Source of the DNA: a virus | Strand: one strand, 5' to 3' | DNA length: 64,000 nucleotides | Virus record (IMG/VR): IMGVR_UViG_3300032087_002755 | In this document: positions 17,795-43,461 of the stretch, piece by piece | Position numbering within the stretch: the stretch's first letter is position 1 | Layout: the number at the start of each line of letters is the position of its first letter | Position numbers and translations under genes: made by a program | The notes under the pieces: generated by a model | Database searches by the model: none | What the model saw: the letters and a program-made list of their open reading frames with translations, nothing else | What the model was told of the DNA's origin: nothing

Positions 17795-19255
17795 ATGGCA
17801 GCAATAATAACGGAAAAGTTTCGAATCCACAATGCGAAACAATTTAAGGAAGACTTTGGTGAGAGTGCCTCATCGAGTTACATATTCATAGGACGTTCAT
17901 TCGATTGGACTGATGAGAATAACCCGCCTGCACCTGCGAATGCAGTTGGAGAGGAGATAGATTCATATGCAGACATGATTGCAATGAAAAAGGTTTCTAC
18001 ATCAGACGTATCACACGGACTAACAAGACATGATTGGACTTCAGGTACTTCATATGACGAATACTCACATGATTACAGTGCAACTAATTTAAGTCCTGCG
18101 TCAAGTTCAAACAATTTATATGATTCAAGATTCTATGTAATCACTGATGAATACAATGTGTACAAGTGTATCAGAACTGGTAGAAATTCTTCAGGTGCTG
18201 TAGTAGTATCAGACGTAAAACCAACTGGAACAAGTGCAACAACTTTAGTAGAAACTGCTGACTCGACTGCTGCCTCAGGTCGTGGTTATCTATGGAAGTA
18301 CATGTATACTATTTCTGCCTCAGAAACAATTAAGTTTGTCACAAACGATTTCATACCAGTTAAAACAATTGGTGCAATTGCATCAGTAGACGGAACAGGT
18401 TCAGGTGGTGCAATAGGTTCAACTGCAACAGACGATGGTTCTGCTCAGTGGGACGTAGAGAACTCTGCAGTAAACGGAGGAATCAACCATGTATCAGTAA
18501 CAGCTGGTGGTAGTGGTTATACAGACGGAACATACACAAGTGTACCTATCGTTGGAGATGGTTCGGGTGGAGTATGTACTGTTGTAGTATCTTCAGGTGC
18601 AATTACTCATGTTACCGTAACTACAGTCGGGTCAGGATACAAACGTGCTTCTATTAGTGTATCGGGTATCTCAGGTATCGGTGGTGGTTCGGGTGGAACA
18701 TTGAAACCAATCATATCACCTTTATTAGGACACGGTGCAGACCCAGTTCAAGAACTTGGTGGAAACTTTGTTTGTGTTAATGCAAGATTAGAGTTTGCAG
18801 AAGGTTCGGGTGACTTCCCAATCGATAATGATTTCAGAAGAATTGGTTTAATTCAAGACCCATTCAATGTTGGAACAACAACAGTTGCAACCTCAACTTC
18901 ATTAGCTGCATATTCACAAATGACACTTTCAAGTGTTAGTGGTCTTGCAGTAGATAACCTAATACTATCTGCAGCTGCAGACGGAAGTGGAGTTGCAGTA
19001 TCAAGAGTTGTATCAATTAGTGGTTTAGTCGTTTCACATGTCCCAGTTGCAAATAGTGCTGGTGGATATGTAGACTTTGCATCTTCAGATTCAGTTTACG
19101 TAAGTGGTTCTTCCGTAGGAACTGTAAATTCTGTTAACGCTGCATTCCCCGAAGTTGAAAGATATTCAGGTCAAATAATGTATGTTGAAAACAGAGGTGC
19201 AGTAACAAGAGCTGCAGACCAAATCGAAGATATCAAACTGATAATCGAAATGTAA
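17795..19255 (+). CDS. gp8: Baseplate wedge subunit
   Basis: MAAIIT.KFRI.NA, FYV.T.EYNVYKC, GY.WKYMY, GHG.DP..ELG, ENR..V.RA.DQ.EDIKL. Confidence 0.9.
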   Translation: MAAIITEKFRIHNAKQFKEDFGESASSSYIFIGRSFDWTDENNPPAPANAVGEEIDSYADMIAMKKVSTSDVSHGLTRHDWTSGTSYDEYSHDYSATNLSPASSSNNLYDSRFYVITDEYNVYKCIRTGRNSSGAVVVSDVKPTGTSATTLVETADSTAASGRGYLWKYMYTISASETIKFVTNDFIPVKTIGAIASVDGTGSGGAIGSTATDDGSAQWDVENSAVNGGINHVSVTAGGSGYTDGTYTSVPIVGDGSGGVCTVVVSSGAITHVTVTTVGSGYKRASISVSGISGIGGGSGGTLKPIISPLLGHGADPVQELGGNFVCVNARLEFAEGSGDFPIDNDFRRIGLIQDPFNVGTTTVATSTSLAAYSQMTLSSVSGLAVDNLILSAAADGSGVAVSRVVSISGLVVSHVPVANSAGGYVDFASSDSVYVSGSSVGTVNSVNAAFPEVERYSGQIMYVENRGAVTRAADQIEDIKLIIEM

Positions 19256-19292: not shown

Positions 19293-22200
19293 ATGGCAGA
19301 GAAAACTGATTTAAATATATCACCCTATTATGACGACTACAGTCAGGATAAAAATTTCCACAAGGTCTTATTTCGTGCAAGTCGACCTTTACAAGCAAGG
19401 GAATTAACTCAGTCTCAATCAATCCTACAAAACCAAATTGAAAGATTTGGTAATCATATATTTGAAGAGGGTTCGATTGTTACTGGTGCTCAAACTGATG
19501 TCGATATGGAACTTTACTTTGTTAAGGTAAAGTCTTCCAATCCAAATGTTAGTGGTGATTCTTCAGTTGAGACATACAGAAAATCCTTTCACGGAAAAAT
19601 AATACAAGGTAAAACTACAGGTGTTGTAGGTAAGGTTGTTACTTCTACTGCAGAAACAACAGACGATAAAACTACACTCTTTGTTAGATATCAATCACAA
19701 GGAACAGATACATCAAACTCATTTACATTCTCTGCTGGTGAAGAACTACAAGAAGTTACAGTAGACCAAAATGGTGCTATTACATCAGTAGGTTCAAACA
19801 ATAATGAATTTACAGTAGACTCATTAACAGTAGACTCAAATCCAACAGGAAGAGCTTCAATTGCAAACATATCAGAAGGTGTTCTATTCTTAAGAGGATT
19901 CTTTGTAAAAGTTCCAGCACAAGAACTTATATTAGAAAAATACTCGGGTGCTCCTTCATATAGAGTTGGTTTAACTATTACAGAAAAGTTAATCTCCTCT
20001 GCAGAAGATAATTCTTTATTAGATAACTCACAAGGAACAACAAACGAAAACGCTGCTGGTGCAGATAGACTTAAGTTTGATGTGGTATTAAGTAAGTATG
20101 CACTTACTACAACCACTGATACAGACTTCGTAGAACTCGTTAGAGTTAACAAAGGTTTAATCGAACTCAAAGTAGATAAACCAATATACAATGAAATCGA
20201 ACATACAATGGCACGAAGAACTTTCGATGCAAATGGTGATTTTGTTGTAAGACAATTCGTTCCAAATTTAAAGGAACACTTAGACACTTCAATCAATGGT
20301 GGAGTCTATACAAAATCAAATGGTGGTGACGAATCTAAATTTGTCATGCAAGTATCGCCTGGTAAAGCATATGTTAAAGGATATGAGATTGATAAAATAG
20401 GAACAACAACAGTTCCATTAAATAAAGCAAGGTCAGTAGTTTCTTTAGACAATGCAAACACACCTATTAGATTAGGTAACAAATTAAGAGTTACAAGTGT
20501 ACATTCATTACCCGAATTTGGTAATGACGTAGGTAACACTGCATTAGACCCATTCCAAGTTGCAAACTTAGTAGATTATACACCAAGTGCTGGTGCAGCT
20601 GTTACTGGAAATCCAATCGGTTTATGTAGAGTTAGAAATGTTGATGAACATACAACAGGTGTATACAATTTATACTTGTTTGATATCAAAATGTTCACAA
20701 AGATTACTTTAACTAGTATTTCCTCTTCAAGTGAATTCAGTGTTGGAGATAAAATAACAGAAGACACAACAGGTGCAACAGGTATTGTTTCAGTCGTAGA
20801 TGCAACTAATAATATTCTTATGTTGCATGATGTGGTTGGTACATTTACAGTTGGAAATGGTTTATCCTCAAAAGGTTTAACAAGTACAACTAAATCAGCT
20901 GGTGCAATCACTGGAGTTAGAACATATAACATTGATAGAGTTAGAGGTGTAATACAAGAATCAAATGACTCTAACAATGAAAGATTTACTGCAAGTGTAG
21001 TTTTAGACAGTGTATTTAACTTAACAGGAACAGTAATATTCGGTTCAACTACAACTATTACAGGTTTCGGAACTAAATTTACTACAGAACTTAAAGAAGG
21101 AGACGTTATTCACAATCCTACTTCAGGTCAAAATTTAATTATCAGTGCAGTCACAAGTGATATACTTGCAACAGTAACAGTTGCCTCAAGTGGTGAATAT
21201 CAAGGTGGTTGTTCGAGATTACGTGCAACGTTATACGACCAAAACCAAACTGCAAACATATTCGCATGGCCAAGAAACTGGGTTAAAACACATACAGGTG
21301 AATCAATTCAAATACGAAGACAATTTACAGTTGCACTTACCAATACGGGTACGTTTACTATAGACACTGGTTCTAATGGTACATTCGGTGCAGTAAACAA
21401 AGACAACTTTACAATTGCATGTATTCAAGGTGCTGGTGGAACATTATCTGCTGGAGACTTAGTTGACCCCGATACACTTACAAATTCGGTTTCACCTTCA
21501 GGTTCAGGACAACAGATTACATTCAGTGGTATTAATGCAAATAACAGTGGTGCAACAGTAAAAGTTTCATACACGGTTACAATAACAGACCCAGTTAACA
21601 GAACTAAAACACTAAGAAGTGGAAGAATGTTAAAAGTCGGAACTAGTTCTGCTACAAATACAGTATTCTATGGAACTGCATACGATAACAAAGAAATTAC
21701 ACTAGGTGTTCCTGATGTATATAAAGTTCGTGGAATATACGAAGGAGTATCAGGAGATGCAGTACCACCTTCAGGAGTTATTACTACTACAACTGGAACC
21801 TTTGTTGTTAATGAAGAGATTGTAGGACAAACTTCAGATGCACGTGCAAATATAGTAACACTAGGTTCAAACCCAGCTGTGTCATGGTTCTATTACACTA
21901 ACGATAAAGTATTTACTAATACAGAAAGTATTATTGGTCAGACTTCAGGTGCAGTCGGAACTATTGCATCAGTAACAGCAGGGTCACCAAATATTAAAAA
22001 CAGATACTTCTTTGACAATGGTCAGAGAGACGGATACTATGACCTTTCAAAACTAGTATTGAAGCCTGGTGAACCAACTCCAAACAATAAAATTCTAGTA
22101 ATCTTTGATTACTTCCAATCATCAGGTGGTGGTGATTACTTTGACGTAAATTCATATAACTCAATTCCGTATTCAGAGATACCAGTTTACTCACCAAACA

Positions 22201-25200
22201 AAGTAGACTTGGGTGGATTAGAACCTGATGGAACTTTTGAGTTATCAGACTCAGTCGATTTCAGACCATTAGTTGGTCAGATATTAGGGTCTACAACTTT
22301 TGCAACAAACACTTCACAAGACCCAACAGATTCCACAAGTATTGTTGACTTATCAGATACAAGTGGAGAAGGTGCAAGATATGCTCCATTCGGATATGAG
22401 AGTGGACGTTCTTTCTTAGGAACAAGAACAAATATTGCAACAACCAACGCAAGTGCAGTTGATACCCCAGTAAGTGGTTCAAGTGTTGTGGGTGATATAT
22501 CATTCTATGTTGGTAGAATAGATAAAGTATTTTTACATAAGTCAGGAATGTTCCAAGTATCAACTGGAAATCCTTCCTTATCACCAACTAAACCTAAAGC
22601 TATTGACGAATCAATCGAAATGTTTGAATTGTCAATACCGCCTTACACTAATAAGTTAAACCAAATCAGAGTAAGGTCACAAGACCATAGACGATATACT
22701 ATGAAAGATATCGGAAAGATTAATAACAGGGTCACTAACTTAGAAAGAATTACTTCACTATCATTACTTGAGAAAGATACTCAATCAAAACAGATTTTAG
22801 ATGCAGACGGATTCGATAGATATAAGTCAGGTTTCTTAGTAGATAACTTTAGAGGTCATAAGATTGGTGACGTAAATCACCCCGACTATAAGTGTTCTAT
22901 CGATACAAAAATGGGTATGTTAAGACCTCAGTCTTATCAACAGTTCTTTGATATTGGATTAAACTCAGGTGCATCTTCAAACTTTACAAAAACTGGTGAC
23001 TTAATAACATTACCATTTACAGAACTTGCATATGTAGACCAAAATAAAGCGTCTCGTTCAATCAATGTTAACCCATACCATGTATTTGCATTCGTAGGTA
23101 ATGTCAAGTTGACACCCGAAACAGATATATGGCAAGATACAGAACAACTACCCGAAGTTAGAATCAATAGAGAAGGAAACTTTGATGCAGTATTATCGGA
23201 CAACACAAATGCACTAGGAACAGTTTGGAACTCGTGGCAAACCACATGGGCAGGTGAACCAAGTGTAGTGTCTTCAGAAGTTCAAGCAACTTCTAATGGT
23301 TCATGGTCAGGAGACCCAGCACAAGGTGGTGAATGGGTTGCTGGTTTAGAGATAACAAGAGAAATTACAGAGACACCTGAGATTCAAACAAGAACAGGTG
23401 TAACAACAAGTGTCGTAGAAGACTTTGTAGAAACAAGAAACGATAGAATCGTGTCAGTATCAATTGTTCCTTTCATGCGTGCAAGGACTATTGAGATAGA
23501 TGCAACCAACTTAAAGCCTGGTTCGAATCATTACTTCTTCTTTGACAACATAGACGTAAACAGATTCGTAAGACCTTACAGTGGAACTTATTCACAAGAC
23601 GGTGGAACAACAGTTACATCAAATTGTAAAACAGACGGAAACGGAAGATTACGTGCATACTTTGAATTACCGAATAATTCAATAGACAAGTTTGCAACAG
23701 GACAAAGAGAATTAAGAATAACATCTTCTGCAAACAATTTAAGTAATCCTGCTTCAAATGGTAGTGCAGTATATCAAGCACAAGGACTATTACAAGCATC
23801 ACAAACAGAAATCGTATCTACAAGAAATGGTAGAGTGGTTATGGAAAGATTACAAGGTTCAAGGTCAATGTCTAGAAGGGGTGAGAATTTAAACTCTGCA
23901 CCAACAGACACAACTGCACCACCACTACCTCAAGCACCTGCTGAAATTGTGAGGGTAAATGACCCACCACAAGATATGACACCACCAGTGATACCCGACC
24001 CAACTCCAGCGGTTCCCGACCCTGTAGCAGTAATACCAGTCGAATCACCACTAGTGTTTACCCCACCAGTAGTATCGTGGCCTGAACCACCTATTGAGGT
24101 TCCAATAATCATTGACGATATGAGAGATAGATTTGTTGATAGAATTGGAAGAAGTTCAAGATTAGATAGAGGTTGGGGAGACCCACTTGCACAATCATTC
24201 TTATGTGAAGCTGACGGAGGTATGTTCTTATCTTCAGTAGACGTGTTCTTTGAAACTAAAGATACTTCAATGCCTGTTTCAGTAGAAGTTAGAACTATGG
24301 TAAACGGATATCCCGGCCAGACTGTTCTTCCTTTCTCTACTGTAACACATAATCCTTCTGCCGTCAATACGTCTGCAGATGGGTCAGTTGCAACAACATT
24401 TACTTTTGATTCCCCAGTATACGTAGAAGAAAACGTAGAGTATGCATTGGTTGTATACTCAAACTCAAATGAATACAACATGTTCATTTCAAGAATGGGT
24501 GAGAAAGACCTTGCAACAGGACAAACAATCGCAGGTCAACCATATGCTGGTTCACTATTCTTATCTCAGAATGCTTCCACATGGACTGCAGAACAAACTG
24601 ATGATATGAAAATCAAAATCAAAACATGTAGATTTGATACTTCAAAAATTTCAAACTTAAAATTTGAGAATGATGCATTACCTTCAACTAAACTACAAAA
24701 CAATCCAATAGAAACTTTTGTTGGTCAAAACTATGTTAAAGTATACAACTACTTACATGGAATGTATGATTCAGTAGGAAATAAAGATAATGTAGTCATG
24801 TCAGGTTTAACAGGAGATAAGACAGGTTCAATATTAACCTTGGGTAGTAATTCAGTTAATGCAACACCTACAGACGGAACATATAATAATTTAGCAATTA
24901 GTTCAGGTTCTACTAGTGGAACAGGTGCAACACTTAGTGTCGTAGTTGCAAGTGGTGCTGTTACTAGTTGTCTAATTAGCAACCCAGGCGGTGGTTATCT
25001 AGATACAGAAACCTTAGTCATAAACAATTTCGATGCAAATGGAACAACCCTATCAGTAGAGATTGGTACGGTTGGTGAAACATTAGGTTCAATTCCAGTT
25101 GCAGCTTTAAATACAACGTTTACACAAATCAGTAATAGAGGAATTGATTCATATACAGTGATACCCGATTTATCTTCATTTAATTTTGTGTCAGGATACA

Positions 25201-26009
25201 CTGCATTAGTATCAACAGTTAGTGGTGGAAGTAATGCACTATCAACTAGAAACTATTACTTTGATGCAATTCATACAATGATTCCTTCTATTGCAGTTAA
25301 GAATACACAAATTCTTGCAAGTATTCAAGGGACTGGAATGAGTTCACCCGAAGGTGTAATCAGTGGAACTGCATACACTAAGAGTACAACAAGTACATTT
25401 ATCACATTGAATGATAATGCATTCTTTGATGCACCAAGTATTGTTGCATCAACAATCAATGAACAAAATGAAATGTCTAGTACAAAATCATTTAGTGTTA
25501 ACTTACAACTTGCATCATTTAACCAAAACATTTCTCCAGTTATAGACGTGGGAACAATTGGTTGTATAGGTATTGCAAACAGATTAAACAACATAGATAG
25601 TAGTGCAGATGTCCCTACAGGAACCACATATATCCCTTCTACTGAACCCGAAGGGGATTCTAATGCAATGGTATATGTAACACGTAAAGTGAACCTTAAA
25701 ACACCTGCTACAAGTCTTAAAGTTATTGGAGATTTCTTCAGACCGCCAACAACAGATATCAAAGTCATGTATAAGATAATTAAAAATGACGAAGATACAC
25801 CATTAGATGATATTGGATTCCAATTCTTCAATACTAATGGAAGTCCCGATGTCTCAGTTGAGAATGACGGAAGAAACTTTAAAGAATACGAATTCACTGC
25901 AAACGACTTGCCTGAATTCAGTGCATTTGCTGTGAAAATAGTTGGACAAGGAACAAATACATCAGTAGTACCATTGATTACTGCACTTAGATGTATGGCA
26001 CTTGCATAA
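19293..26009 (+). CDS. Large virion structural protein (VrlC/DUF4815-like)
   Basis: N.SPYYDDY, VLFR..RPLQARELTQ.Q, GADR, GKAYVKGYE, RYTMKDIG, GF.VDNF, DPLAQSF, GSLF.SQNASTW. Confidence 0.85.
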   Translation: MAEKTDLNISPYYDDYSQDKNFHKVLFRASRPLQARELTQSQSILQNQIERFGNHIFEEGSIVTGAQTDVDMELYFVKVKSSNPNVSGDSSVETYRKSFHGKIIQGKTTGVVGKVVTSTAETTDDKTTLFVRYQSQGTDTSNSFTFSAGEELQEVTVDQNGAITSVGSNNNEFTVDSLTVDSNPTGRASIANISEGVLFLRGFFVKVPAQELILEKYSGAPSYRVGLTITEKLISSAEDNSLLDNSQGTTNENAAGADRLKFDVVLSKYALTTTTDTDFVELVRVNKGLIELKVDKPIYNEIEHTMARRTFDANGDFVVRQFVPNLKEHLDTSINGGVYTKSNGGDESKFVMQVSPGKAYVKGYEIDKIGTTTVPLNKARSVVSLDNANTPIRLGNKLRVTSVHSLPEFGNDVGNTALDPFQVANLVDYTPSAGAAVTGNPIGLCRVRNVDEHTTGVYNLYLFDIKMFTKITLTSISSSSEFSVGDKITEDTTGATGIVSVVDATNNILMLHDVVGTFTVGNGLSSKGLTSTTKSAGAITGVRTYNIDRVRGVIQESNDSNNERFTASVVLDSVFNLTGTVIFGSTTTITGFGTKFTTELKEGDVIHNPTSGQNLIISAVTSDILATVTVASSGEYQGGCSRLRATLYDQNQTANIFAWPRNWVKTHTGESIQIRRQFTVALTNTGTFTIDTGSNGTFGAVNKDNFTIACIQGAGGTLSAGDLVDPDTLTNSVSPSGSGQQITFSGINANNSGATVKVSYTVTITDPVNRTKTLRSGRMLKVGTSSATNTVFYGTAYDNKEITLGVPDVYKVRGIYEGVSGDAVPPSGVITTTTGTFVVNEEIVGQTSDARANIVTLGSNPAVSWFYYTNDKVFTNTESIIGQTSGAVGTIASVTAGSPNIKNRYFFDNGQRDGYYDLSKLVLKPGEPTPNNKILVIFDYFQSSGGGDYFDVNSYNSIPYSEIPVYSPNKVDLGGLEPDGTFELSDSVDFRPLVGQILGSTTFATNTSQDPTDSTSIVDLSDTSGEGARYAPFGYESGRSFLGTRTNIATTNASAVDTPVSGSSVVGDISFYVGRIDKVFLHKSGMFQVSTGNPSLSPTKPKAIDESIEMFELSIPPYTNKLNQIRVRSQDHRRYTMKDIGKINNRVTNLERITSLSLLEKDTQSKQILDADGFDRYKSGFLVDNFRGHKIGDVNHPDYKCSIDTKMGMLRPQSYQQFFDIGLNSGASSNFTKTGDLITLPFTELAYVDQNKASRSINVNPYHVFAFVGNVKLTPETDIWQDTEQLPEVRINREGNFDAVLSDNTNALGTVWNSWQTTWAGEPSVVSSEVQATSNGSWSGDPAQGGEWVAGLEITREITETPEIQTRTGVTTSVVEDFVETRNDRIVSVSIVPFMRARTIEIDATNLKPGSNHYFFFDNIDVNRFVRPYSGTYSQDGGTTVTSNCKTDGNGRLRAYFELPNNSIDKFATGQRELRITSSANNLSNPASNGSAVYQAQGLLQASQTEIVSTRNGRVVMERLQGSRSMSRRGENLNSAPTDTTAPPLPQAPAEIVRVNDPPQDMTPPVIPDPTPAVPDPVAVIPVESPLVFTPPVVSWPEPPIEVPIIIDDMRDRFVDRIGRSSRLDRGWGDPLAQSFLCEADGGMFLSSVDVFFETKDTSMPVSVEVRTMVNGYPGQTVLPFSTVTHNPSAVNTSADGSVATTFTFDSPVYVEENVEYALVVYSNSNEYNMFISRMGEKDLATGQTIAGQPYAGSLFLSQNASTWTAEQTDDMKIKIKTCRFDTSKISNLKFENDALPSTKLQNNPIETFVGQNYVKVYNYLHGMYDSVGNKDNVVMSGLTGDKTGSILTLGSNSVNATPTDGTYNNLAISSGSTSGTGATLSVVVASGAVTSCLISNPGGGYLDTETLVINNFDANGTTLSVEIGTVGETLGSIPVAALNTTFTQISNRGIDSYTVIPDLSSFNFVSGYTALVSTVSGGSNALSTRNYYFDAIHTMIPSIAVKNTQILASIQGTGMSSPEGVISGTAYTKSTTSTFITLNDNAFFDAPSIVASTINEQNEMSSTKSFSVNLQLASFNQNISPVIDVGTIGCIGIANRLNNIDSSADVPTGTTYIPSTEPEGDSNAMVYVTRKVNLKTPATSLKVIGDFFRPPTTDIKVMYKIIKNDEDTPLDDIGFQFFNTNGSPDVSVENDGRNFKEYEFTANDLPEFSAFAVKIVGQGTNTSVVPLITALRCMALA

Positions 26010-26219: not shown

Positions 26220-27446
26220 ATGGCAAAAACAGTAGACCAATTTTCAACGATAGAAAATTTCAGAACCAAGTATAATGAACTTGCCGTTGACGTTGGTGAG
26301 TTATCAGGTTTAAGAACTGAATCAACTTCAAATGTAGTTGATGCACTTAACAGCCTTGAAGATAAAGCATTCTTCTTTCAAGAGTTTAAGTATAGTGCAA
26401 CGAGTGGTCAAACTGTATTCTCGGGTAATGATTCTGCTGGTAACTCTTTAGTATTCAGAAGTGGAAGAATCCAAGTATTTAAAAATGCAACTCATTTACT
26501 TTTAGGAACAGATTATACAATCGGTGGTGTAAACGGAAACAAACATACAGAAATTACACTTAACGTAGGTGCATCAGTTAGTGATGTTATCACTGTTTAT
26601 GCATATACAGGTTCATACTTAGGAAGTGCAATTGGAACTGGTGGTGGAACAGACGGTCAGTTTACTGAAACCGCTGCAAACACTATTTACAACAAAAATA
26701 CAAATGGTGTAATATTAAATGGTTCTTCAACTGGAAGAACAACTACACTTTCTACAAGTGCAAAAATAGAATTTGATTCTGCTGGAACAGGTATCTATTC
26801 ACAAGAAGATATTACACTTGCAGCTGGTAAGAATTTTGTTGGAAATCTAACTGGAGACGTTACTGGTGATTTAACTGGAAATGTCACTGGAAACCTCACT
26901 GGTAATGTCACTGGAAATACTTCAGGTAGTGCTGGAACAGTCACAAGTATATCTACACATAGTGCAAGTGCATTATCAGACATTAATTATACCACAACAC
27001 CTTCTAACGGTCAAATCCTTACATGGGATAATGCAAATCAGTATTGGGAACCAGCAGATAATCAATCTCTTTCTTCATTAAGTGGTGATACAGACGACCT
27101 TACAGAAGGAACAACAAATCTGTTTTCAACTACAGAAAGAATTCAAGATGCAGCTGCACAAATGATTACAAGTGCCGCACATAGTAACATATCAGTATCA
27201 TATGATGACGGATTGGGTACACTTACATTTACTGCTGGTGCAACATATGCTGATTCAGACGCAAGAGCTGCCGTGTCAGGTGGAAACGGACTTGCATATA
27301 ATAGTTCAACAGGTGTCTTTAGTGCAAACACTTCAAATGGTATCGAAATAAATAGTGATAGTATAGAATTAGATTATGAAATAGTCAATTCTGCACCCGC
27401 TAGTGCTGGTTCTACATCAACTGGTCACTTGTGGTTTGTTATATAA
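26220..27446 (+). CDS. Fibre protein 1 (N-terminal anchor, GNLTG repeats, C-terminal SAP...GHLW motif)
   Basis: F..FR.K.NEL N-terminus, ATSGQTVF domain, (G[ND][LV]T)n repeats. Confidence 0.7.
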   Translation: MAKTVDQFSTIENFRTKYNELAVDVGELSGLRTESTSNVVDALNSLEDKAFFFQEFKYSATSGQTVFSGNDSAGNSLVFRSGRIQVFKNATHLLLGTDYTIGGVNGNKHTEITLNVGASVSDVITVYAYTGSYLGSAIGTGGGTDGQFTETAANTIYNKNTNGVILNGSSTGRTTTLSTSAKIEFDSAGTGIYSQEDITLAAGKNFVGNLTGDVTGDLTGNVTGNLTGNVTGNTSGSAGTVTSISTHSASALSDINYTTTPSNGQILTWDNANQYWEPADNQSLSSLSGDTDDLTEGTTNLFSTTERIQDAAAQMITSAAHSNISVSYDDGLGTLTFTAGATYADSDARAAVSGGNGLAYNSSTGVFSANTSNGIEINSDSIELDYEIVNSAPASAGSTSTGHLWFVI

Positions 27447-27455
27447 TGAGATGAA

Positions 27456-28931
27456 ATGTCAGACGAAATATACATTAATATAGGGTCAACGATACAACAA
27501 CCGTATCAAGGTCAAACACCTGCTTCTGCTCAGTCTAATGAAACGAAACAGATAGTAAAACGAACTCCTGCGAGTTCTCAGACCTCATATAGAAGTCCGA
27601 GTCAAACACCTTCAACTTATAGGTCGCCAGTTGCTGGACAACAACCTTTAACTAATGTAAACAAACAAACTCCATTTACATATCAAGCACAAAGTCAGTC
27701 ACCTTTTACATATCAGGTGACTTATCAACACCCAGCAATTTATTCATATAGACAACCAAGTACGACACAAAGTCCTTATATTGCTAATGGACAAACTAAT
27801 CAAGCAAATGTAAGTAAACAAAGTCCATTTACAACACCTATTTCAAATGTAAGTAAACAAAGTCCATTTACATACCAATACAGGTCTCCATTTCCTTACT
27901 CGTATCAGCAACCTGCTAGACAACCTGTGGATGCTAGAAATCCATTCACGTATCAGAATGTCGGCCCAGTTTCTTATCAACAGGTTGGGTTTGCACGTTC
28001 ACCATTTATCTATTGGTATCAAATACAACAAGCAAAATTTGCTGACCCCGAAGAAATAGATTTTTATCAAGGGCCTCAGGGTGACGGTTATGACGTTACT
28101 GGAAGTAAACAATGGTTTACAGAAGCTAGAACTCCAGTGATTGCACAAGGGTATTTACAACCCGCTAGAACACCAGTAGCAGGTGGTGCCGCGACTGGTT
28201 TCTATCAGCTCCCATATATCTATCTCGGTGAGAATGTTAGATTAAATATACCGTATCCATATATTGCACCAGCTACACAACAACCTTATACAATATATCG
28301 TTCCTCGAATCCTGTAAATGCACAACAACCATTTACGTTTCAGAGTCCGTTTACAACACCTATTGCAACTGCACAAGGTCAAGAACCTAATATTAGAAAT
28401 GCACGACAACCATTAATCTATCAATATCAGCAACCTGTAAGACAACCAGTAATCTATCAACATAGACAACCGTTTACTTATCAACATAGACAGCCTCTTA
28501 ATAATCAAACACCGATTGCAAATGTAAGTTCACAAACAACTGCTCAAAAAACTGTTAATGCACAAGAATCAAATCCATACATTGCAAACGCTAGACAACC
28601 TATAATTTATCAGACTAGGTCACCATTCACATATAGAAACCCAGTGAATGCACAAACAAGTACACAAAATGTTGCAAGACAACCTAACATTTATCAGACA
28701 CCTTACCAAGTAAATTATCAACATAGGTCACCATACATATATCAGACACCATATACAACAACTAGAAGTATCGGCCCAGTTGCCAAAGTGAAGGGAGTTT
28801 ATTTGAATGACGGTGGAACTGTAAGAAAGGTTCAAGAGATTTATACAAATGAAAACTCTACACCCGAGAAAATACACCAAACAGTCCCCGCTGCAAGATT
28901 CTCTAAAAATCCTTCAAACACTCAAGTATAA
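27456..28931 (+). CDS. Pro-punctuated Q/Y/T/R-rich repeat protein; predicted self-complementary giant beta-hairpin (fibre-tip appendage)
   Basis: Units FTYRNP, YIANARQP, VNAQ.P etc.; N-arm and C-arm unit lengths mirror each other. Confidence 0.75.
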   Translation: MSDEIYINIGSTIQQPYQGQTPASAQSNETKQIVKRTPASSQTSYRSPSQTPSTYRSPVAGQQPLTNVNKQTPFTYQAQSQSPFTYQVTYQHPAIYSYRQPSTTQSPYIANGQTNQANVSKQSPFTTPISNVSKQSPFTYQYRSPFPYSYQQPARQPVDARNPFTYQNVGPVSYQQVGFARSPFIYWYQIQQAKFADPEEIDFYQGPQGDGYDVTGSKQWFTEARTPVIAQGYLQPARTPVAGGAATGFYQLPYIYLGENVRLNIPYPYIAPATQQPYTIYRSSNPVNAQQPFTFQSPFTTPIATAQGQEPNIRNARQPLIYQYQQPVRQPVIYQHRQPFTYQHRQPLNNQTPIANVSSQTTAQKTVNAQESNPYIANARQPIIYQTRSPFTYRNPVNAQTSTQNVARQPNIYQTPYQVNYQHRSPYIYQTPYTTTRSIGPVAKVKGVYLNDGGTVRKVQEIYTNENSTPEKIHQTVPAARFSKNPSNTQV

Positions 28932-37420: not shown

Positions 37421-38074
37421 ATGGCTACAGGATTCTTTCAACAACCTAATTCGGGGTCAGCACAAACGGCGGTTAATGCACAAACACCGTTCACTTATAA
37501 TGCTAGATATCCAGCAAGTGCTCAGCAACCGTATACGTTCCAATCACCATTTACATATAGTGCAAGATATCCTGCGAATGCTCAACAACCGTTTACGTTC
37601 CAGTCACCATTTACATATAGGGTGCCTTATATTGCTAATGCAAGACAACCAGTAATTTATAGAAACCCATTTACATATAGGGTTCCATATATTGCAAATG
37701 CTAGACAACCAGTAATCTATCAACATAGGTCTCCTTTCACTTATAGAAATCCTGTATCTGCACAAGAACCTAATATCAGAAATGCACAAACACCTTTCAC
37801 TTACAGAAACCCAGTGAATGGTCAAGAACCTAACATTAGAAACGCACAAACACCTTTCACTTATAGAAACCCAGTGAATGGTCAAGAACCTAATATTAGA
37901 AATGCACAAACACCGTTTACGTATCAGAATAGACAACCATTTACGTATCAGAACAGACAACCGTTCACATATCAGAATAGACAACCTTCTACATATGCGA
38001 CACAAGGTAGAACGCCAGAAGCGAGATGGGACGGAGTAGTAACACAGCAGTGGCCTGCTCAACCAATAACATAG
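37421..38074 (+). CDS. Pro-punctuated repeat protein, strand A of predicted antiparallel heterodimer
   Basis: 27 units of 6/8/10 aa, residues 10-199; 60-nt and 24-nt DNA tandem repeats. Confidence 0.8.
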   Translation: MATGFFQQPNSGSAQTAVNAQTPFTYNARYPASAQQPYTFQSPFTYSARYPANAQQPFTFQSPFTYRVPYIANARQPVIYRNPFTYRVPYIANARQPVIYQHRSPFTYRNPVSAQEPNIRNAQTPFTYRNPVNGQEPNIRNAQTPFTYRNPVNGQEPNIRNAQTPFTYQNRQPFTYQNRQPFTYQNRQPSTYATQGRTPEARWDGVVTQQWPAQPIT

Positions 38075-38084
38075 GAATAAGATA

Positions 38085-38894
38085 ATGGCATCAGGAAATC
38101 AAAACGTCAAAACACCTACAGGTTGGAATGCAACACGTGGTGCATGGGTAAAAACACCAGCTGGTTGGAATGCAGTAGACCAAATATATGTAAAAACACC
38201 TTCAGGGTGGAATAATGCATCAGGACAAGAATTAACACAAATTCCATATCCTTACATTGCAAATGCTCAGAATCCTTATATTGCAGATGCACAACAACCG
38301 TATATTGCAAATGCACAACAACCATATATTGCAGATGCAAGACAACCGTCAACCTATCAACATAGGTCACCATTTACTTATCAAAACCCAAGTAATGCTA
38401 GACAACCTTCTACATATAGTCATAGGTCACCATTTACTTATCAAAACCCAAGTAATGCTAGACAACCGTCAACCTATCAACATAGGTCACCGTTCACTTA
38501 CAGAAATCCTGTAAATGCACAAGAACCTAATATAAGAAATAGACAGTCACCGTTCACTTATAGTGCTAGATATCCTGCGAATGCTCAGAGTCCTAGTAAT
38601 AAACAGTCACCATTTACATATAGTGCAAGGTATCCTGCGAATATTAGACAACCTAACAGTGCAAGGAACCCGTTCACATACAGAGTTCCATATATTGCTA
38701 ATGCTAGACAACCTAACAGTGCAAGGAATCCGTTTACATATCGTGTTCCATATATTGCTAATGCTAGACAACCTAACATTGCAAGGTCACCGTCAATCTA
38801 TAACTATAGATTCCCAATGGTGTACTTCTATCAAACTGGTGGAGGAAATTTCTTACCACAGGGAGATGGTACGAAGAACGTGGGAGCTCTATAA
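38085..38894 (+). CDS. Pro-punctuated repeat protein, strand B, with N-terminal (VKTPxGWN)x3 anchor
   Basis: 27 units, residues 55-244, in reverse length order to 37421. Confidence 0.8.
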   Translation: MASGNQNVKTPTGWNATRGAWVKTPAGWNAVDQIYVKTPSGWNNASGQELTQIPYPYIANAQNPYIADAQQPYIANAQQPYIADARQPSTYQHRSPFTYQNPSNARQPSTYSHRSPFTYQNPSNARQPSTYQHRSPFTYRNPVNAQEPNIRNRQSPFTYSARYPANAQSPSNKQSPFTYSARYPANIRQPNSARNPFTYRVPYIANARQPNSARNPFTYRVPYIANARQPNIARSPSIYNYRFPMVYFYQTGGGNFLPQGDGTKNVGAL

Positions 38895-38954: not shown

Positions 38955-40529
38955 ATGAAAAACTTGAAATACTATACAGAAGTTTTAGAAGAACTCAAAC
39001 CCGAAGATTGGGACTTTAAAACACTAACTACACAAGAATTATATCAAAAAGAAGATTATCACTTCGGTGCTTTTAATGATATACGAACCATAGACAAAGA
39101 TACTGAAGTATATAAATCCTTTAAATATGTCTTTGAGAACATTATACCACCCACAAAAATCATTAAGTGGGGAGATATTTTAGAATTACGTAAGAATAAA
39201 ACATTCATAGGATTCCAAGGAACTTCATTGGAAGCCATGCATTATCACAAATATTTACCACACGTATATACCGACAAAGAGAGAACTGGTAAACAGATAG
39301 GAAATATGGATTGTAAGACACCTGATGGTGAATATGCAGATATTACGGAATTCACACCTCTATTAACACAAGAACAGAAAGACCAAGACCATATAGGTAT
39401 ATCATTAAACTCTATGTATTATCATAGTGCAAAAGCACATTGGTTGGTTCAAAGTATACAAGAAGAAGGATTACGACACCCTATACAAGGAGTGACATTT
39501 AAAGTTGACGATAGATTTGGTTTTAGAATCCACCCAGGCTCTATTAGGTCTAAAGTGTTTGAAGAATTAGAAGACCCAAATTTCGAAATATTTGCAACAG
39601 ATATACACGATATCTTTGATTCAAAACCTTTGACTTGTGACGAGGTGTTAGAATATTGGTGTAAGAAACTAGAAGAGAGAAAAGATACTATCGGTAATTA
39701 TAACATGTCAGTAACACTATGTAATGGAAACATAGAATACAACCATGCATTAATGGATTTAGACTTTCGAAAAGAAGTTTGGGAACATAGTAAAAAAGCA
39801 ACACTTCAATCCAAAGGTAAACCTCTCAACATTTACATTGGGTATGATAGTAGCCATGGAGACTTACATGAAGTTAGTAAAGATTCAATTCTCAAAACTC
39901 TGAGTAACCAACACCTTGGACACTTAATTAAAGAAACAGAGTGGAAACCTGAGATTAAGTTTCTTGACATTTCCAAACTTCCCGATTATAATAGAGAGTA
40001 TGCAAATCAATCTACTGAATTTACTTATAGTAGATTCTTAATTCCACATTTAGAAAATTATGAAGGTTATAGTATTTTTATGGATAATGATTTCATATGG
40101 AGAAAATCTATACTACCTTTATTCTATTATTTGAACTTAGATGATGCAGTTGCATGTATTCAATACAAACAAATAGAACACGATGAAACCAAGTTTAATG
40201 GTGAGGTTAATATAGACTATCCGAAAAAACTATGGTCAAGTCTTATGGTATTCAATAATGGACATGAAGACTGTAAGAAATTAACACCCGAAGTAGTAAA
40301 CACTTGGACTGGAAAACAATTACACCAGTTTGAATGGACTGATAAGATTAGTAAAATACCCGAAAAGTATGTCTTTACTGAGGGGTATGATGACCCTGAT
40401 GAGAAATGGGATTATCATGGTATCCATTATACAAGGGGAGGCCCATGGGTAAAAGACATGGATTATTCCAACATAAATAACTTAGATGACTGGTTAACTG
40501 CAAAAACCAACTTGCAAAAAAACCAATAA
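38955..40529 (+). CDS. Fusion: ParB/Srx-like N-terminal region + GT-A glycosyltransferase (GT8-like)
   Basis: IYIGYD, STEFTYSRFLIP, FMDNDF (DxD), YPKKLWSSLMVFN, HYTRGGPW; N-term SIQEEGLRHPI...IHPGSIR. Confidence 0.82.
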   Translation: MKNLKYYTEVLEELKPEDWDFKTLTTQELYQKEDYHFGAFNDIRTIDKDTEVYKSFKYVFENIIPPTKIIKWGDILELRKNKTFIGFQGTSLEAMHYHKYLPHVYTDKERTGKQIGNMDCKTPDGEYADITEFTPLLTQEQKDQDHIGISLNSMYYHSAKAHWLVQSIQEEGLRHPIQGVTFKVDDRFGFRIHPGSIRSKVFEELEDPNFEIFATDIHDIFDSKPLTCDEVLEYWCKKLEERKDTIGNYNMSVTLCNGNIEYNHALMDLDFRKEVWEHSKKATLQSKGKPLNIYIGYDSSHGDLHEVSKDSILKTLSNQHLGHLIKETEWKPEIKFLDISKLPDYNREYANQSTEFTYSRFLIPHLENYEGYSIFMDNDFIWRKSILPLFYYLNLDDAVACIQYKQIEHDETKFNGEVNIDYPKKLWSSLMVFNNGHEDCKKLTPEVVNTWTGKQLHQFEWTDKISKIPEKYVFTEGYDDPDEKWDYHGIHYTRGGPWVKDMDYSNINNLDDWLTAKTNLQKNQ

Positions 40530-41121: not shown

Positions 41122-41868
41122 ATGGAACTCATTTACCATGATGAGTCCTTCAAGTTACAAGACATAGGATTCCCACTTAAAGACATTCACATTGTTGATA
41201 ATTGGTTACCTGTACAAATACACCATTGGATTGATAATACATTTTCTAGAAATCAAATATGGTCTAAACAAAACCAAGTGAATGCTGGTAGTCCTACTGG
41301 ATTACCTCATCATCAGTTTTGGGGTGTTGGACTCTTTGACGCTGGACGGAGTGGAAAGAAGTATGAATATCCTAATTTTGCAAAAGAGATGCACGAAGAT
41401 TCTTGGTCTGAGTTATATGATTGTAGAGCAGTCGCAAGATATTTAGATAGAAAATTACAAACAGACTTTGGTTTTAAGTGGGAAAGATTTCAATACATGG
41501 GACTGAATTCACAAACACAAGGTTTACACGGAACAACACATGCAGATTGTGAAGATGAAGATGAGTGGAATCTATCGTTTTTATATTATACCAATAAGTT
41601 TTGGGAGAAACATTGGGGAGGCCCTTTGAGAATATATGACGAAATGCAACAGGGTTTACATGGTCGTGCAAATCATATAAAGAATCACCAAATTGCAGAA
41701 ATAGAATTTAAACCAAATAGATTGTTAATATTTGACGGAAGAATACCACATGGTGCAGATGCACCTACACCCGAGGCACGTTATATGGACAGAAAGTCCA
41801 TAGTTATTAGAGGCGATGAAATTAGACTGGTAGAAGATGAGGAGTTTTTTAAACAATGCCCACGATAG
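41122..41868 (+). CDS. 2OG-Fe(II) oxygenase (prolyl-4-hydroxylase-like)
   Basis: HxD (HAD), LYY.N..W...WGG.L, FKPNRL.IFDG.IPH, distal R.S. Confidence 0.85.
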   Translation: MELIYHDESFKLQDIGFPLKDIHIVDNWLPVQIHHWIDNTFSRNQIWSKQNQVNAGSPTGLPHHQFWGVGLFDAGRSGKKYEYPNFAKEMHEDSWSELYDCRAVARYLDRKLQTDFGFKWERFQYMGLNSQTQGLHGTTHADCEDEDEWNLSFLYYTNKFWEKHWGGPLRIYDEMQQGLHGRANHIKNHQIAEIEFKPNRLLIFDGRIPHGADAPTPEARYMDRKSIVIRGDEIRLVEDEEFFKQCPR

Positions 41869-42752
41869 AATTTAACACATATAACGAACAAACACTTAAA
41901 GATGTAAAACCCGTTCTTGCAAAATCTGTTTCACCCGATTGGTGGAAACAGATGAAATTTAGTGAATATAATCGTGGAAATCTAATAACAACTATTCGTG
42001 CATGTCCAGCTATGGACGATTGGTTAAAAAGTGGTTGGTATTTACTTGCAAACAGAGATATGATTGTTAAGAATGGTAGTATTACAGATTCAGATGACGA
42101 TGATGAAATTTATATGTCAACACATGAATTTGGTGAAGGTTATGAACACCCTTCACCAGCACACCCTAGTGGTCAAATGGGATATGCATTTCAATATATT
42201 CCTGATGACGAAGCACCAATAAGGGGTGCATTTAAGTTTAGAAATCCATGGAATATTACAACACCGCCTGGATATTCTTGTTTATATCTAGACCCATTTC
42301 TATTTCAAAATAAATTCTTTGCAACATGGCAAGGTATTATTGATACAGACAAGTTTAATGCAAACTATGATAATGCACAAGTAATATTCTATCCTCGTGT
42401 TGGACATTCATTCGTTATACCAAAAGGAACACCTCTTTGTCAAATTATACCATATAAAAGAGAAGAATGGCAAGCCACATACCTTACGTATAAGTCTAAT
42501 GATTGGACAAAGAATAGAAGTCATATTACTAGTAACCGTGAAAATAAAACTATGGACGAGTTTTCAAGAGACCCAGCAACTTCTGATGAATATAGAAAAA
42601 ATGAAATGACAGTTGGTGGTTATCGTGGTGGTAATTTACATTCTAATAAAGGTAAACTATATAAACAAGAGAATCCACCACCCGAGTGTCCTTATCATGT
42701 AAGTGAGGATTCACCCGAAATACAATTGGAGTTAAACTTAAAAGATGATTAG
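41856..42752 (+). CDS. Conserved hypothetical protein often found beside phage oxygenases (DUF6065-like)
   Basis: TIRACP...D, KF.NPW.I.TPPGYS.L, GIIDTD, IPKGTPL.QIIP..RE.W. Confidence 0.65.
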   Translation: MPTIEFNTYNEQTLKDVKPVLAKSVSPDWWKQMKFSEYNRGNLITTIRACPAMDDWLKSGWYLLANRDMIVKNGSITDSDDDDEIYMSTHEFGEGYEHPSPAHPSGQMGYAFQYIPDDEAPIRGAFKFRNPWNITTPPGYSCLYLDPFLFQNKFFATWQGIIDTDKFNANYDNAQVIFYPRVGHSFVIPKGTPLCQIIPYKREEWQATYLTYKSNDWTKNRSHITSNRENKTMDEFSRDPATSDEYRKNEMTVGGYRGGNLHSNKGKLYKQENPPPECPYHVSEDSPEIQLELNLKDD

Positions 42753-43461
42753 ATTATTATTCCCATATGTCTGTATTGAAAGAGACCTTTTAAAAGAAGG
42801 TGCAATCAGTGAAGACTATATTAAAATTCTCAAAGACGCTGTGGACGGAATGAGAAAGAAAGACACAGTTGGTAGAAGTATTTCTAATCAATACACTGGT
42901 TGGCAGTCAAATGATGGTTGTGAAAGTCACCCAGCATTTCAAAAAATAATGAGGATAATTAAAAACACTTTTGATACTGAATTATTAGATTGGAATGGAC
43001 TTGATAGAGGACAGGTTCAACTAACAATGGGTAATTCATGGGCAAACATAAACGACAATACAGCATGGAATGCTCCACACTTACACAATGGTTGTTGGTA
43101 TAGTGGTGTGTTCTATATCCATGCAGATGGAGACGAAGGAGACTTTATAGCAGTTGATAAAGACCCAAAAGTGGTATCAGACTTTCCACATTCACCAAGA
43201 GAACAAGCAAATTTTAAAGTATCACCAACAACTGGTACATTGTTTCTATTTCCAAGTGGTTTGATGCATATGGTGGAACCCAATATGACTCAAAAAGATA
43301 GATATAGTATTTCCTTCAATATGAATGTCACCTACTTAACTGCTGGTCTACAAGCTAGATTAGGGAATCCTAAAGGATATCACCCCGATGAACTTACTTT
43401 TACTACAGACGAAGACGGGAAATTAGTTCATTTATTTCCACAATTAAACAGTAACGACTAA
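42745..43461 (+). CDS. Putative 2OG-Fe(II) oxygenase (TIGR02466-like)
   Basis: GWQS, SWANIN, N.PH.H, SGVFY, LFPS.L.H.V.PN, RYSISFN. Confidence 0.85.
   Translation: MIRLLFPYVCIERDLLKEGAISEDYIKILKDAVDGMRKKDTVGRSISNQYTGWQSNDGCESHPAFQKIMRIIKNTFDTELLDWNGLDRGQVQLTMGNSWANINDNTAWNAPHLHNGCWYSGVFYIHADGDEGDFIAVDKDPKVVSDFPHSPREQANFKVSPTTGTLFLFPSGLMHMVEPNMTQKDRYSISFNMNVTYLTAGLQARLGNPKGYHPDELTFTTDEDGKLVHLFPQLNSND

What the first reader, a model, noticed from the sequence alone, without database searches (positions are those of the whole stretch)
27456..28931. A third protein is self-complementary by the same code: giant single-chain beta-hairpin with a central tip domain
SEEN: the N-arm (res 23-169, nt ~27522-27962) read forward pairs with the C-arm (res 287-432, nt ~28314-28751) read backward over 22 units. 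Examples: STYRSP/VNAQTS, VAGQQP/FTYRNP, FTYQAQSQSP/NPYIANARQP, FTYQVT/VNAQES, YIANGQTN/FTYQHRQP, FTTP/VRQP and reciprocally ARQP/FTTP, FTYQYRSP/NIRNARQP, VDARNP/FTFQSP, FTYQNV/VNAQQP. Five 9-mers (mostly xxNVxxQxx) always face an 8-mer of type xxY[QS]xxxP, and this occurs in both directions (possible beta-bulge). Some boundaries were placed at non-Pro residues, so this match is less strict than A/B. It gives independent support for the pairing code. INFERENCE: the 117-aa centre (res 170-286) is a distal, possibly receptor-binding tip.
Basis: partly seen in the sequence, partly recalled or inferred. Interest (0 to 1): 0.88.

Follow-up and report, generated by a model that had tools for sequence, protein, structure and literature searches.

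The report
Fold-back phage fibre with complementary arms
A 491-residue protein in the tail-fibre region of an uncultured SAR11-type (pelagimyophage-like) phage has two halves that match each other back to front, and relatives change both halves together, so the chain most likely zips into a long thin stalk with both ends at the base and a variable knob at the tip.

Summary
In ORF 27456-28931, residues 23-169 read forward match residues 432-287 read backward, unit by unit. With a pairing matrix trained only on the neighbouring A/B proteins, the end-to-end antiparallel score is +23, against -58±13 for 300 unit shuffles. All 17 unit rotations score at most +1.6, and the parallel alignment scores -120.

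The signal in this protein alone is moderate, because its arms score about as well against A or B. The family evidence is much stronger:
- Homologues have up to 17 Pro-Pro coincidences on one anti-diagonal.
- 49 of 53 equal-length units pair an aromatic type with a small-residue type.
- Spacings between anchor motifs are mirrored (30/30, 44/44, 54/54).
- Two 87%-identical, gap-free relatives differ by a reciprocal swap of a 9-residue unit at mirrored positions.
- Conservation is V-shaped: both termini are conserved and the middle is variable.

The gene sits just after VrlC in the host-recognition cluster. It has no Pfam, PDB or cultured-phage relative.

AlphaFold gave no confident model, so the beta structure, hairpin versus antiparallel dimer, oligomeric state and a receptor-binding tip are all inferred.

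The scan noted similar zipper pairs in another genome.

The parts
27456..28931 (+). Whole gene, 491 aa plus stop. It is tightly coupled to the upstream fibre-like gene, which ends at 27446.
   Evidence: Full-length homologues of 38-95% identity exist.
27456..27521 (+). N-terminal 22-aa conserved module (residues 1-22). More than 100 protein clusters with different bodies share it. It is a presumed docking adaptor.
   Evidence: HMM hits. Identity to distant homologues is 0.84-0.87.
27522..27962 (+). N-arm, residues 23-169: Pro-delimited units of 4-10 residues, including three 9-mers.
27963..28313 (+). Central region, residues 170-286: the presumed distal tip. It is the least conserved part and is replaced by unrelated sequence in other clades.
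   Evidence: The centre HMM hits only some clades. Identity is 0.19-0.39. The AF2 model is all-beta with pLDDT 55-65. There is no fold match.
28314..28751 (+). C-arm, residues 287-432: read backward, it is complementary to the N-arm.
28752..28910 (+). Conserved C-terminal domain, residues 433-485. It matches phrog_13729 (unknown function) over residues 442-476.
37421..38074 (+). Protein A (217 aa). It is built from the same unit types and is one half of the two-chain version of the pairing.
   Evidence: Unit lengths are the exact reverse of B's, 27 of 27.
38085..38894 (+). Protein B (269 aa), partner of A. Its C-terminal end resembles the entry to the centre of the 491-aa protein.
   Evidence: BLASTP E 5e-4 for a single comparison.

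Best explanation
The gene encodes a virion fibre-type protein of a pelagimyophage-like T4-type phage. Its N-arm (residues 23-169) and C-arm (residues 287-432) associate side by side in antiparallel orientation.

The arms are chains of short extended segments, mostly ending in proline. A segment with an aromatic motif (F/x-T-Y type) lies opposite a segment of the same length with small residues (N-A / N-I-R / Y-I-A type). The irregular order of 6-, 8- and 9-residue units fixes one register.

Folding back on itself would bring the conserved N-terminal 22 residues and the conserved C-terminal ~53 residues together at one end, the base, which docks on the baseplate or fibre network. It would put the variable central ~90-117 residues at the far end of a stalk. 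The stalk would be up to about 48 nm long if fully extended (146 residues at about 3.3 Å each; this is inference).

Shown:
- Mirror complementarity in this protein.
- Co-variation of the two arms in the family.
- V-shaped conservation.
- The gene's place among fibre genes.

Inferred:
- Beta conformation.
- Intramolecular (hairpin) rather than intermolecular pairing.
- Higher oligomer, probably through the aromatic face.
- A host-binding role for the centre.
For: 1. This protein: the statistics under the observation check. Its own C-half is the best partner of its N-half among 13 C-halves (51 against at most 35).
2. Family, Pro-Pro matches: the anti-diagonal fixed beforehand by the terminal domains (start of C-domain + 21) is the global maximum, with 11-17 ungapped Pro-Pro matches in nine diverged homologues. 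The background is about 2±1.9.
3. Unit pairing: in those nine homologues, 16/18 equal-length 6-mers and about 33/35 8-mers pair an aromatic type with a small type, in both orientations.
4. Mirrored indels: the spacing between two anchor pairs is 30/30, 44/44 or 54/54 in different homologues. One member of the 541-aa clade lacks one 7-mer in each arm.
5. Compensatory swaps: P0012 and P0014 are 87% identical with no gaps. They differ in two patches, at 158-166 and 330-338, which exchange unit type at mirrored positions. P0032 and P0036 swap at unit 65-72 and its partner.
6. Conservation relative to P0001 is 0.87 at residues 1-20 and 0.79 at 421-440. It falls to 0.19 in the inner arms and centre. 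The centre is non-homologous between clades.
7. Context: the gene lies directly after gp8 and VrlC/DUF4815, among fibre genes. The synteny is conserved on a 146-kb TARA contig. This is the host recognition cluster of PMC7029224.
8. The same code pairs A' and B' in that other phage with a different unit order (score 234 over 229 columns).
Against: - No confident structure was obtained. In the AF2 models the arms have pLDDT 22-35 in P0001 and about 25-30 in P0032.
- The arms of P0001 score as well against A or B as against each other.
- Proline positions alone are weakly mirrored in P0001, and a register six residues away competes.
- The 445-aa and 467-494-aa sister clades show no signal with the A/B matrix (z about 0), although their Pro-Pro anti-diagonals are maxima.
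- One homologue (P0041) lacks 36 residues of the outer C-arm, so its arms are unbalanced.
- A hairpin and an antiparallel dimer predict the same sequence patterns.
Confidence: 0.6

Rival explanations
1. The complementarity is the same, but it is satisfied between chains. Two or more copies lie antiparallel, the N-arm of one on the C-arm of the other. This gives a symmetric rod with an N-domain plus a C-domain at each end and the variable centres in the middle: a strut or cross-brace rather than a tipped fibre.
For: Every sequence test (mirror, swaps, V-shaped conservation) is equally met. A and B show that this code does work between separate chains.
Against: Many relatives with the same N-terminal module have mirrored arms that run up to a turn of only about 7 residues. 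This favours intrachain folding. A variable centre suits a distal tip better than the middle of a rod. Neither point is decisive.
Confidence: 0.2
2. There is no pairing of the two arms. The protein is a repeat-rich, possibly flexible fibre or linker. The mirror is a by-product of a shared repeat grammar in which aromatic and small units alternate.
For: Cross-scores with A and B are as high as the cognate score. A aligned against its own reverse scores 131. Unit-shuffle nulls destroy the alternation and so inflate z. The arms have low pLDDT.
Against: The rotation null, which keeps the grammar, still leaves the true register best (+23.4 against at most +1.6). Reciprocal unit swaps and mirrored spacings in homologues are not expected from grammar alone. 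Cognate pairs dominate the cross table for most homologues.
Confidence: 0.08
3. The arms pair with other proteins that use the same code (A, B or further copies) and form a mixed fibre or network, rather than pairing with each other.
For: N-arm against reversed A scores 58.9 over 115 columns. The three genes co-occur in two phages.
Against: A and B are perfect partners for each other (27/27 units, score 320 against at most 84 for any other pairing). The co-variation in homologues is between the two arms of the same chain.
Confidence: 0.07

Closest known systems
Proteins A and B of the same window (37421-38074, 38085-38894) and their counterparts on TARA contig L001
   Same: They use the same Pro-terminated 6/8-residue units, the same aromatic-versus-small pairing and the same antiparallel mirror. 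B's C-terminal end weakly resembles the entry to the centre of the 491-aa protein.
   Different: Here both arms are in one chain, joined by a ~117-aa centre. There are 9-mers opposite 8-mers, several unit borders without proline, and distinct conserved N- and C-terminal domains. B's N-terminus shows no similarity to the C-domain.
Needle and tip of the phage T4 long tail fibre protein gp37
   Same: It is a phage fibre in which each chain runs out to the receptor-binding tip and folds back, so that out-going and returning strands lie antiparallel and the tip is formed mid-chain.
   Different: No sequence relation was found. P0001 has no His-x-His metal ladder (read). gp37 is a trimer with an N-terminal shaft, whereas here both termini are conserved and the oligomeric state is unknown. 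No unit-complementarity code is described for gp37.
Repeat shafts of viral fibres (adenovirus or reovirus triple beta-spiral, T4 gp5 or gp12 beta-helices; textbook knowledge)
   Same: They are short repeats with Pro or Gly at turn positions that build thin, rigid beta fibres in virions.
   Different: Those repeats are direct (parallel, same-type) and their chains run in parallel. Here the signal is a mirror between two halves, with two complementary unit types.
Pfam PF10511 Cementoin (transglutaminase-substrate hexapeptide repeats of trappins)
   Same: Protein A scores 35 bits (cut-off 27) through Pro-x-x-Gly-Gln-acidic-Pro type hexapeptides.
   Different: The 491-aa protein does not hit this family, even at E up to 1. 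The resemblance is probably compositional. The biology (mammalian secreted inhibitors) is unrelated.

Membership tests
Mirror-complementary Pro-unit proteins (the A/B 'zipper' kind of this window) | Antiparallel alignment of the two partners in which prolines coincide and unit lengths match | tested here: met
   15 of about 19 N-arm prolines have a mirrored proline on the path of sums 454-456. The match is less strict than in A/B, and the Pro-only z is about 2.
Mirror-complementary Pro-unit proteins (the A/B 'zipper' kind of this window) | Aromatic-type units face small-residue-type units | tested here: met
   In P0001, 9 of 13 blocks are complementary and the rest are ambiguous. The no-Pro matrix score is 38.4 against 20.5±3.0. 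In homologues, 49 of 53 blocks comply.
Mirror-complementary Pro-unit proteins (the A/B 'zipper' kind of this window) | The partners change together in evolution | tested here: met
   Mirrored spacings, reciprocal unit swaps and a paired unit deletion. All of these are seen in homologues, not in P0001 itself.
T4 gp37-type fold-back fibre tip | Sequence homology to gp37 or known fibre-tip families | tested here: not met
   No Pfam, PHROG (apart from one family of unknown function), PDB or phage-database match.
T4 gp37-type fold-back fibre tip | The chain folds back, so that out-going and returning strands are antiparallel neighbours | tested here: inconclusive
   Sequence co-variation supports antiparallel neighbours. 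No confident 3-D model was obtained.
T4 gp37-type fold-back fibre tip | Homotrimer with a His-x-His metal ladder | tested here: not met
   There is no His-x-His in the 491 residues. The oligomeric state cannot be tested here.
Pelagimyophage host-recognition-cluster fibre gene | Located between VrlC and the neck genes, among tail-fibre genes of a T4-like marine phage | tested here: met
   gp8-like protein at 17795, DUF4815/VrlC at 19293-26009 and fibre-like neighbours. Best gp8 match is HTVC008M at 37%. The cluster is defined in PMC7029224. Synteny is conserved.
Curli or functional-amyloid repeat proteins | Direct strand-loop-strand repeats matching curlin models | tested here: not met
   No Pfam curlin hit. 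The repeat relation is a mirror, not direct stacking.

The most novel reading that the evidence does not exclude
These phages use a readable, sequence-encoded pairing code for extended strands. Proline-bounded units of set length come in complementary aromatic and small classes, with finer sub-classes: Y-I-A units face F-T-Y-Q-N-R units, and N-I-R units face x-Y-D-H-R units. The code specifies partner and register over more than 140 residues. It works within one chain (this protein) or between two chains (A/B), much as palindromic or complementary nucleic acids form hairpins or duplexes. That would be a natural beta-strand analogue of coiled-coil heterodimer codes and a new principle for building and diversifying phage fibres.
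Probability: 0.45. Interest if true: 0.9.

Novelty: new variant of a known kind. Interest (0 to 1): 0.78.

Why it matters
If the arms pair as the co-variation indicates, this is a fibre whose fold can be read from its sequence. Unit length and unit class say which segment lies against which, and evolution keeps the two sides matched by reciprocal swaps, as in RNA helices.

This would matter in three ways:
- It would give a rare protein case in which register and partner choice are predictable.
- It offers a design template for long heterospecific beta ribbons.
- It makes a testable statement about how abundant, uncultured SAR11-type phages present a variable host-binding module: both termini at the base, with an exchangeable centre at the tip.

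It also marks a blind spot of current structure predictors, which returned very low confidence for the arms.

Tried and rejected
- **AlphaFold2 monomers.** P0001 with 43 homologues gave pLDDT 38. P0032 with 37 homologues gave pLDDT 32. Both are too uncertain to use. They place equal-length strands at the outer ends of both arms near the expected register, but contacts could not be inspected.
- **Complex prediction.** N-arm against C-arm returned no answer, neither support nor evidence against.
- **Fold and structure searches.** A structural search of the model against PDB representatives gave only Z 2.1. The ESM Atlas search on the centre gave TM at most 0.37. PDB sequence and profile searches found nothing credible.
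- **Family searches.** Pfam at E up to 1 gave only noise.
- **Phage database.** No DNA or protein match. The cultured HTVC008M has no such gene at the syntenic place.
- **Literature.** A motif search found nothing relevant.
- **DNA palindrome or antisense-duplication origin of the mirror.** Rejected. There are no inverted repeats between the arms, only weak short direct repeats. By inspection, the reverse complement of one unit type does not encode the other.
- **Circular-permutation lead from another note.** The tip motif shared with B is weakly supported (E 5e-4). The proposed base similarity was not found.
- **Whole-genome search.** Not possible, because no genome is held for this window.

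Full report
**What is there.** ORF 27456-28931 (+) encodes 491 residues rich in Gln, Pro, Thr and Tyr. It follows the upstream fibre-like gene after nine bases, with no promoter or terminator between them. Cutting after each proline gives short units. Aromatic F-T-Y / I-Y types alternate irregularly with N-A / N-V / Y-I-A / N-I-R types. Only two other proteins in the window use these units: A (37421-38074) and B (38085-38894). I confirmed that A's and B's unit lengths are exact reverses, 27 of 27, and that aromatic units face small units in 26 of 27 pairs.

**Check of the observation.**
- I trained a log-odds pairing matrix on A/B only and applied it to this protein.
- The local alignment covers 53-168 against 401-287 with score 51.2. 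None of 1000 unit shuffles reaches it. The signal survives removal of all proline terms (38.4 against 20.5±3.0).
- The global end-to-end alignment of 23-169 with reversed 287-432 scores +23.4. Unit shuffles give -58.5±13.3, the best of 17 unit rotations gives +1.6, and the parallel alignment gives -119.9.
- The five 9-mers each face an 8-mer, three in one arm and two in the other.
- No DNA inverted repeat links the arms.

**Limits of the single-protein evidence.**
- The code is generic. The N-arm scores 58.9 against reversed A, and the C-arm scores 46-48 against A or B. Shuffle z-scores therefore overstate specificity.
- In a 13x13 table of N-halves against C-halves, the cognate C-half is the best partner of this protein's N-half (51 against at most 35). 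However, another protein's N-half scores 57 on its C-half.
- Proline positions alone give z about 2, and a register six residues away has 8 Pro-Pro matches.
- Taken alone, this protein is a moderate case.

**Family evidence.** The protein has 393 database relatives, all from marine metagenomes and none named. Full-length members (445-610 aa) share the N-terminal 22 residues and a C-terminal domain of about 53 residues.
- *Pro-Pro matches.* In nine diverged members, the anti-diagonal fixed by the terminal domains (C-domain start + 21) is the global maximum of ungapped Pro-Pro coincidences. It has 11-17 matches against a background near 2±1.9.
- *Unit pairing.* On it, 16 of 18 equal-length 6-mers pair the FTYR[NH]P type with the [VS]N[AG]Q[QE]P type. 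About 33 of 35 8-mers pair an aromatic unit with an N-I-R or Y-I-A unit, in both orientations.
- *Self-alignment scores.* They reach 146 (z 18-26) in P0032 and 113 in P0039.
- *Mirrored indels.* The distance between two anchor pairs is 30/30, 44/44 or 54/54 residues in different members.
- *Compensatory changes.* P0032 has an N-I-R unit at 65-72 facing an aromatic unit, and P0036 has the reverse.
- *The 541-aa sister clade* uses 7-residue xAA[Y/S/V]xxP units that again pair aromatic with small. One member lacks one 7-mer in each arm. P0012 and P0014 are 87% identical without gaps. They differ chiefly in two patches, 158-166 and 330-338, which exchange unit type reciprocally at mirrored positions.
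- *Exceptions.* P0041 lacks 36 residues of the outer C-arm. The 445-aa and 467-494-aa clades show no signal with the A/B matrix, though their Pro-Pro anti-diagonals are still maxima.

**Topology and context.**
- Identity of distant homologues to this protein is 0.87 at residues 1-20 and 0.79 at 421-440. It falls from both ends to about 0.19 in the inner arms and centre.
- The centre is unrelated between clades. This V-shape fits a base made of both termini and a distal, exchangeable middle.
- The same pattern would also fit an antiparallel dimer.
- Many relatives with the same N-terminal module have mirrored arms that meet at a turn of about 7 residues and are followed by other C-terminal domains. 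This favours intrachain folding as the usual mode but does not prove it.
- The gene lies after gp8 and VrlC/DUF4815, among fibre-like genes. The order is conserved on a 146-kb TARA contig.
- The nearest cultured phage by gp8 is Pelagibacter phage HTVC008M at 37%, which lacks this gene.
- The region corresponds to the host recognition cluster described for pelagimyophages (PMC7029224).
- On the TARA contig, A'- and B'-type proteins with a different unit order again pair (score 234 over 229 columns).

**Structure prediction.** AlphaFold2 gave pLDDT 38 for this protein and 32 for P0032, with the arms at 22-35. The centre is modelled as beta strands at pLDDT 55-65, without any fold match. There is therefore no structural confirmation. 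Extended or beta conformation is inferred from composition (a proline every 4-10 residues, beta-branched and aromatic residues) and from the residue-by-residue mirror.

**Mechanism proposed.**
- In the Pro-Pro register, odd positions of both partners (F, Y, H with A, V) fall on one face and polar residues (T, R, Q, N) on the other.
- Tyr lies opposite Ala or Gly. This gives large-small packing on an aromatic face that probably needs burial by oligomerisation.
- The irregular 6/8/9 unit order would act as a bar code that forbids slippage.
- All of this is inference from sequence.

**Verdict.** Pairing of the arms is well supported at family level. Hairpin topology, beta structure and tip function remain to be shown. 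No known family fits. The nearest functional analogue I know is the fold-back needle of T4 gp37.

Noticed in passing
L001:17726-19069 (TARA contig); also P0068, P0105, P0111, P0115, P0268-P0272: The B-type partner on the TARA phage carries a C-terminal Hint/intein-like domain after a Gly5-Cys junction (PF14890, 30 bits, below the cut-off of 35.8). Many proteins with the same N-terminal 22-aa module also carry Hint domains. This suggests self-cleavage or ligation at the end of the arm. One possibility, pure speculation, is covalent closure of a two-chain hairpin.
   Followed up: partly
window 38955-40529, 41122-41868, 42745-43461: Just downstream of A/B lie three genes: a protein with a DxD-type motif that looks like a glycosyltransferase (phrog_28018, no Pfam hit) and two 2OG-Fe(II) oxygenases, one of the prolyl-hydroxylase-like PF13640 type. 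These could modify the proline-periodic proteins. However, HTVC008M has such oxygenases without these proteins.
   Followed up: no
window 37421-38074: Protein A passes the Pfam threshold for Cementoin (PF10511; 35.1 bits against 27), a transglutaminase-substrate repeat of mammalian trappins. The match is probably compositional (Pro-Val-x-Gly-Gln-Glu-Pro), but it raises the idea of Gln-based cross-linking.
   Followed up: no
P0041 (446 aa, metagenome contig of 2.5 kb): This homologue is identical in layout to P0033 but lacks 36 residues between the last C-arm anchor and the C-terminal domain. About 50 residues of the N-arm are left without a partner. It is either a natural unbalanced variant or a repeat-collapse assembly error.
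   Followed up: partly
window 27456-27521 and more than 100 protein clusters (P0048-P0121 and others): The 22-residue N-terminal module (M-[SA]-D-E-I-Y-I-N ... Q-Q-P-Y-Q-G-Q) is nearly invariant across proteins with quite different bodies and C-terminal domains. It behaves like a common docking peptide for interchangeable fibres.
   Followed up: partly
P0008, P0010, P0044 centres; window 28074-28088: The centre carries a conserved G-P-[QR]-G-D-G-[YW]-D motif, which is R-G-D in several homologues. B ends with a similar P-Q-G-D-G. Its meaning is unknown.
   Followed up: no
window 26220-27446: The upstream 408-aa fibre-like protein contains a run of T-G-[ND]-[LV] tetrapeptide repeats near residue 215. 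Its C-terminal part weakly matches a structural-protein PHROG (phrog_697).
   Followed up: no
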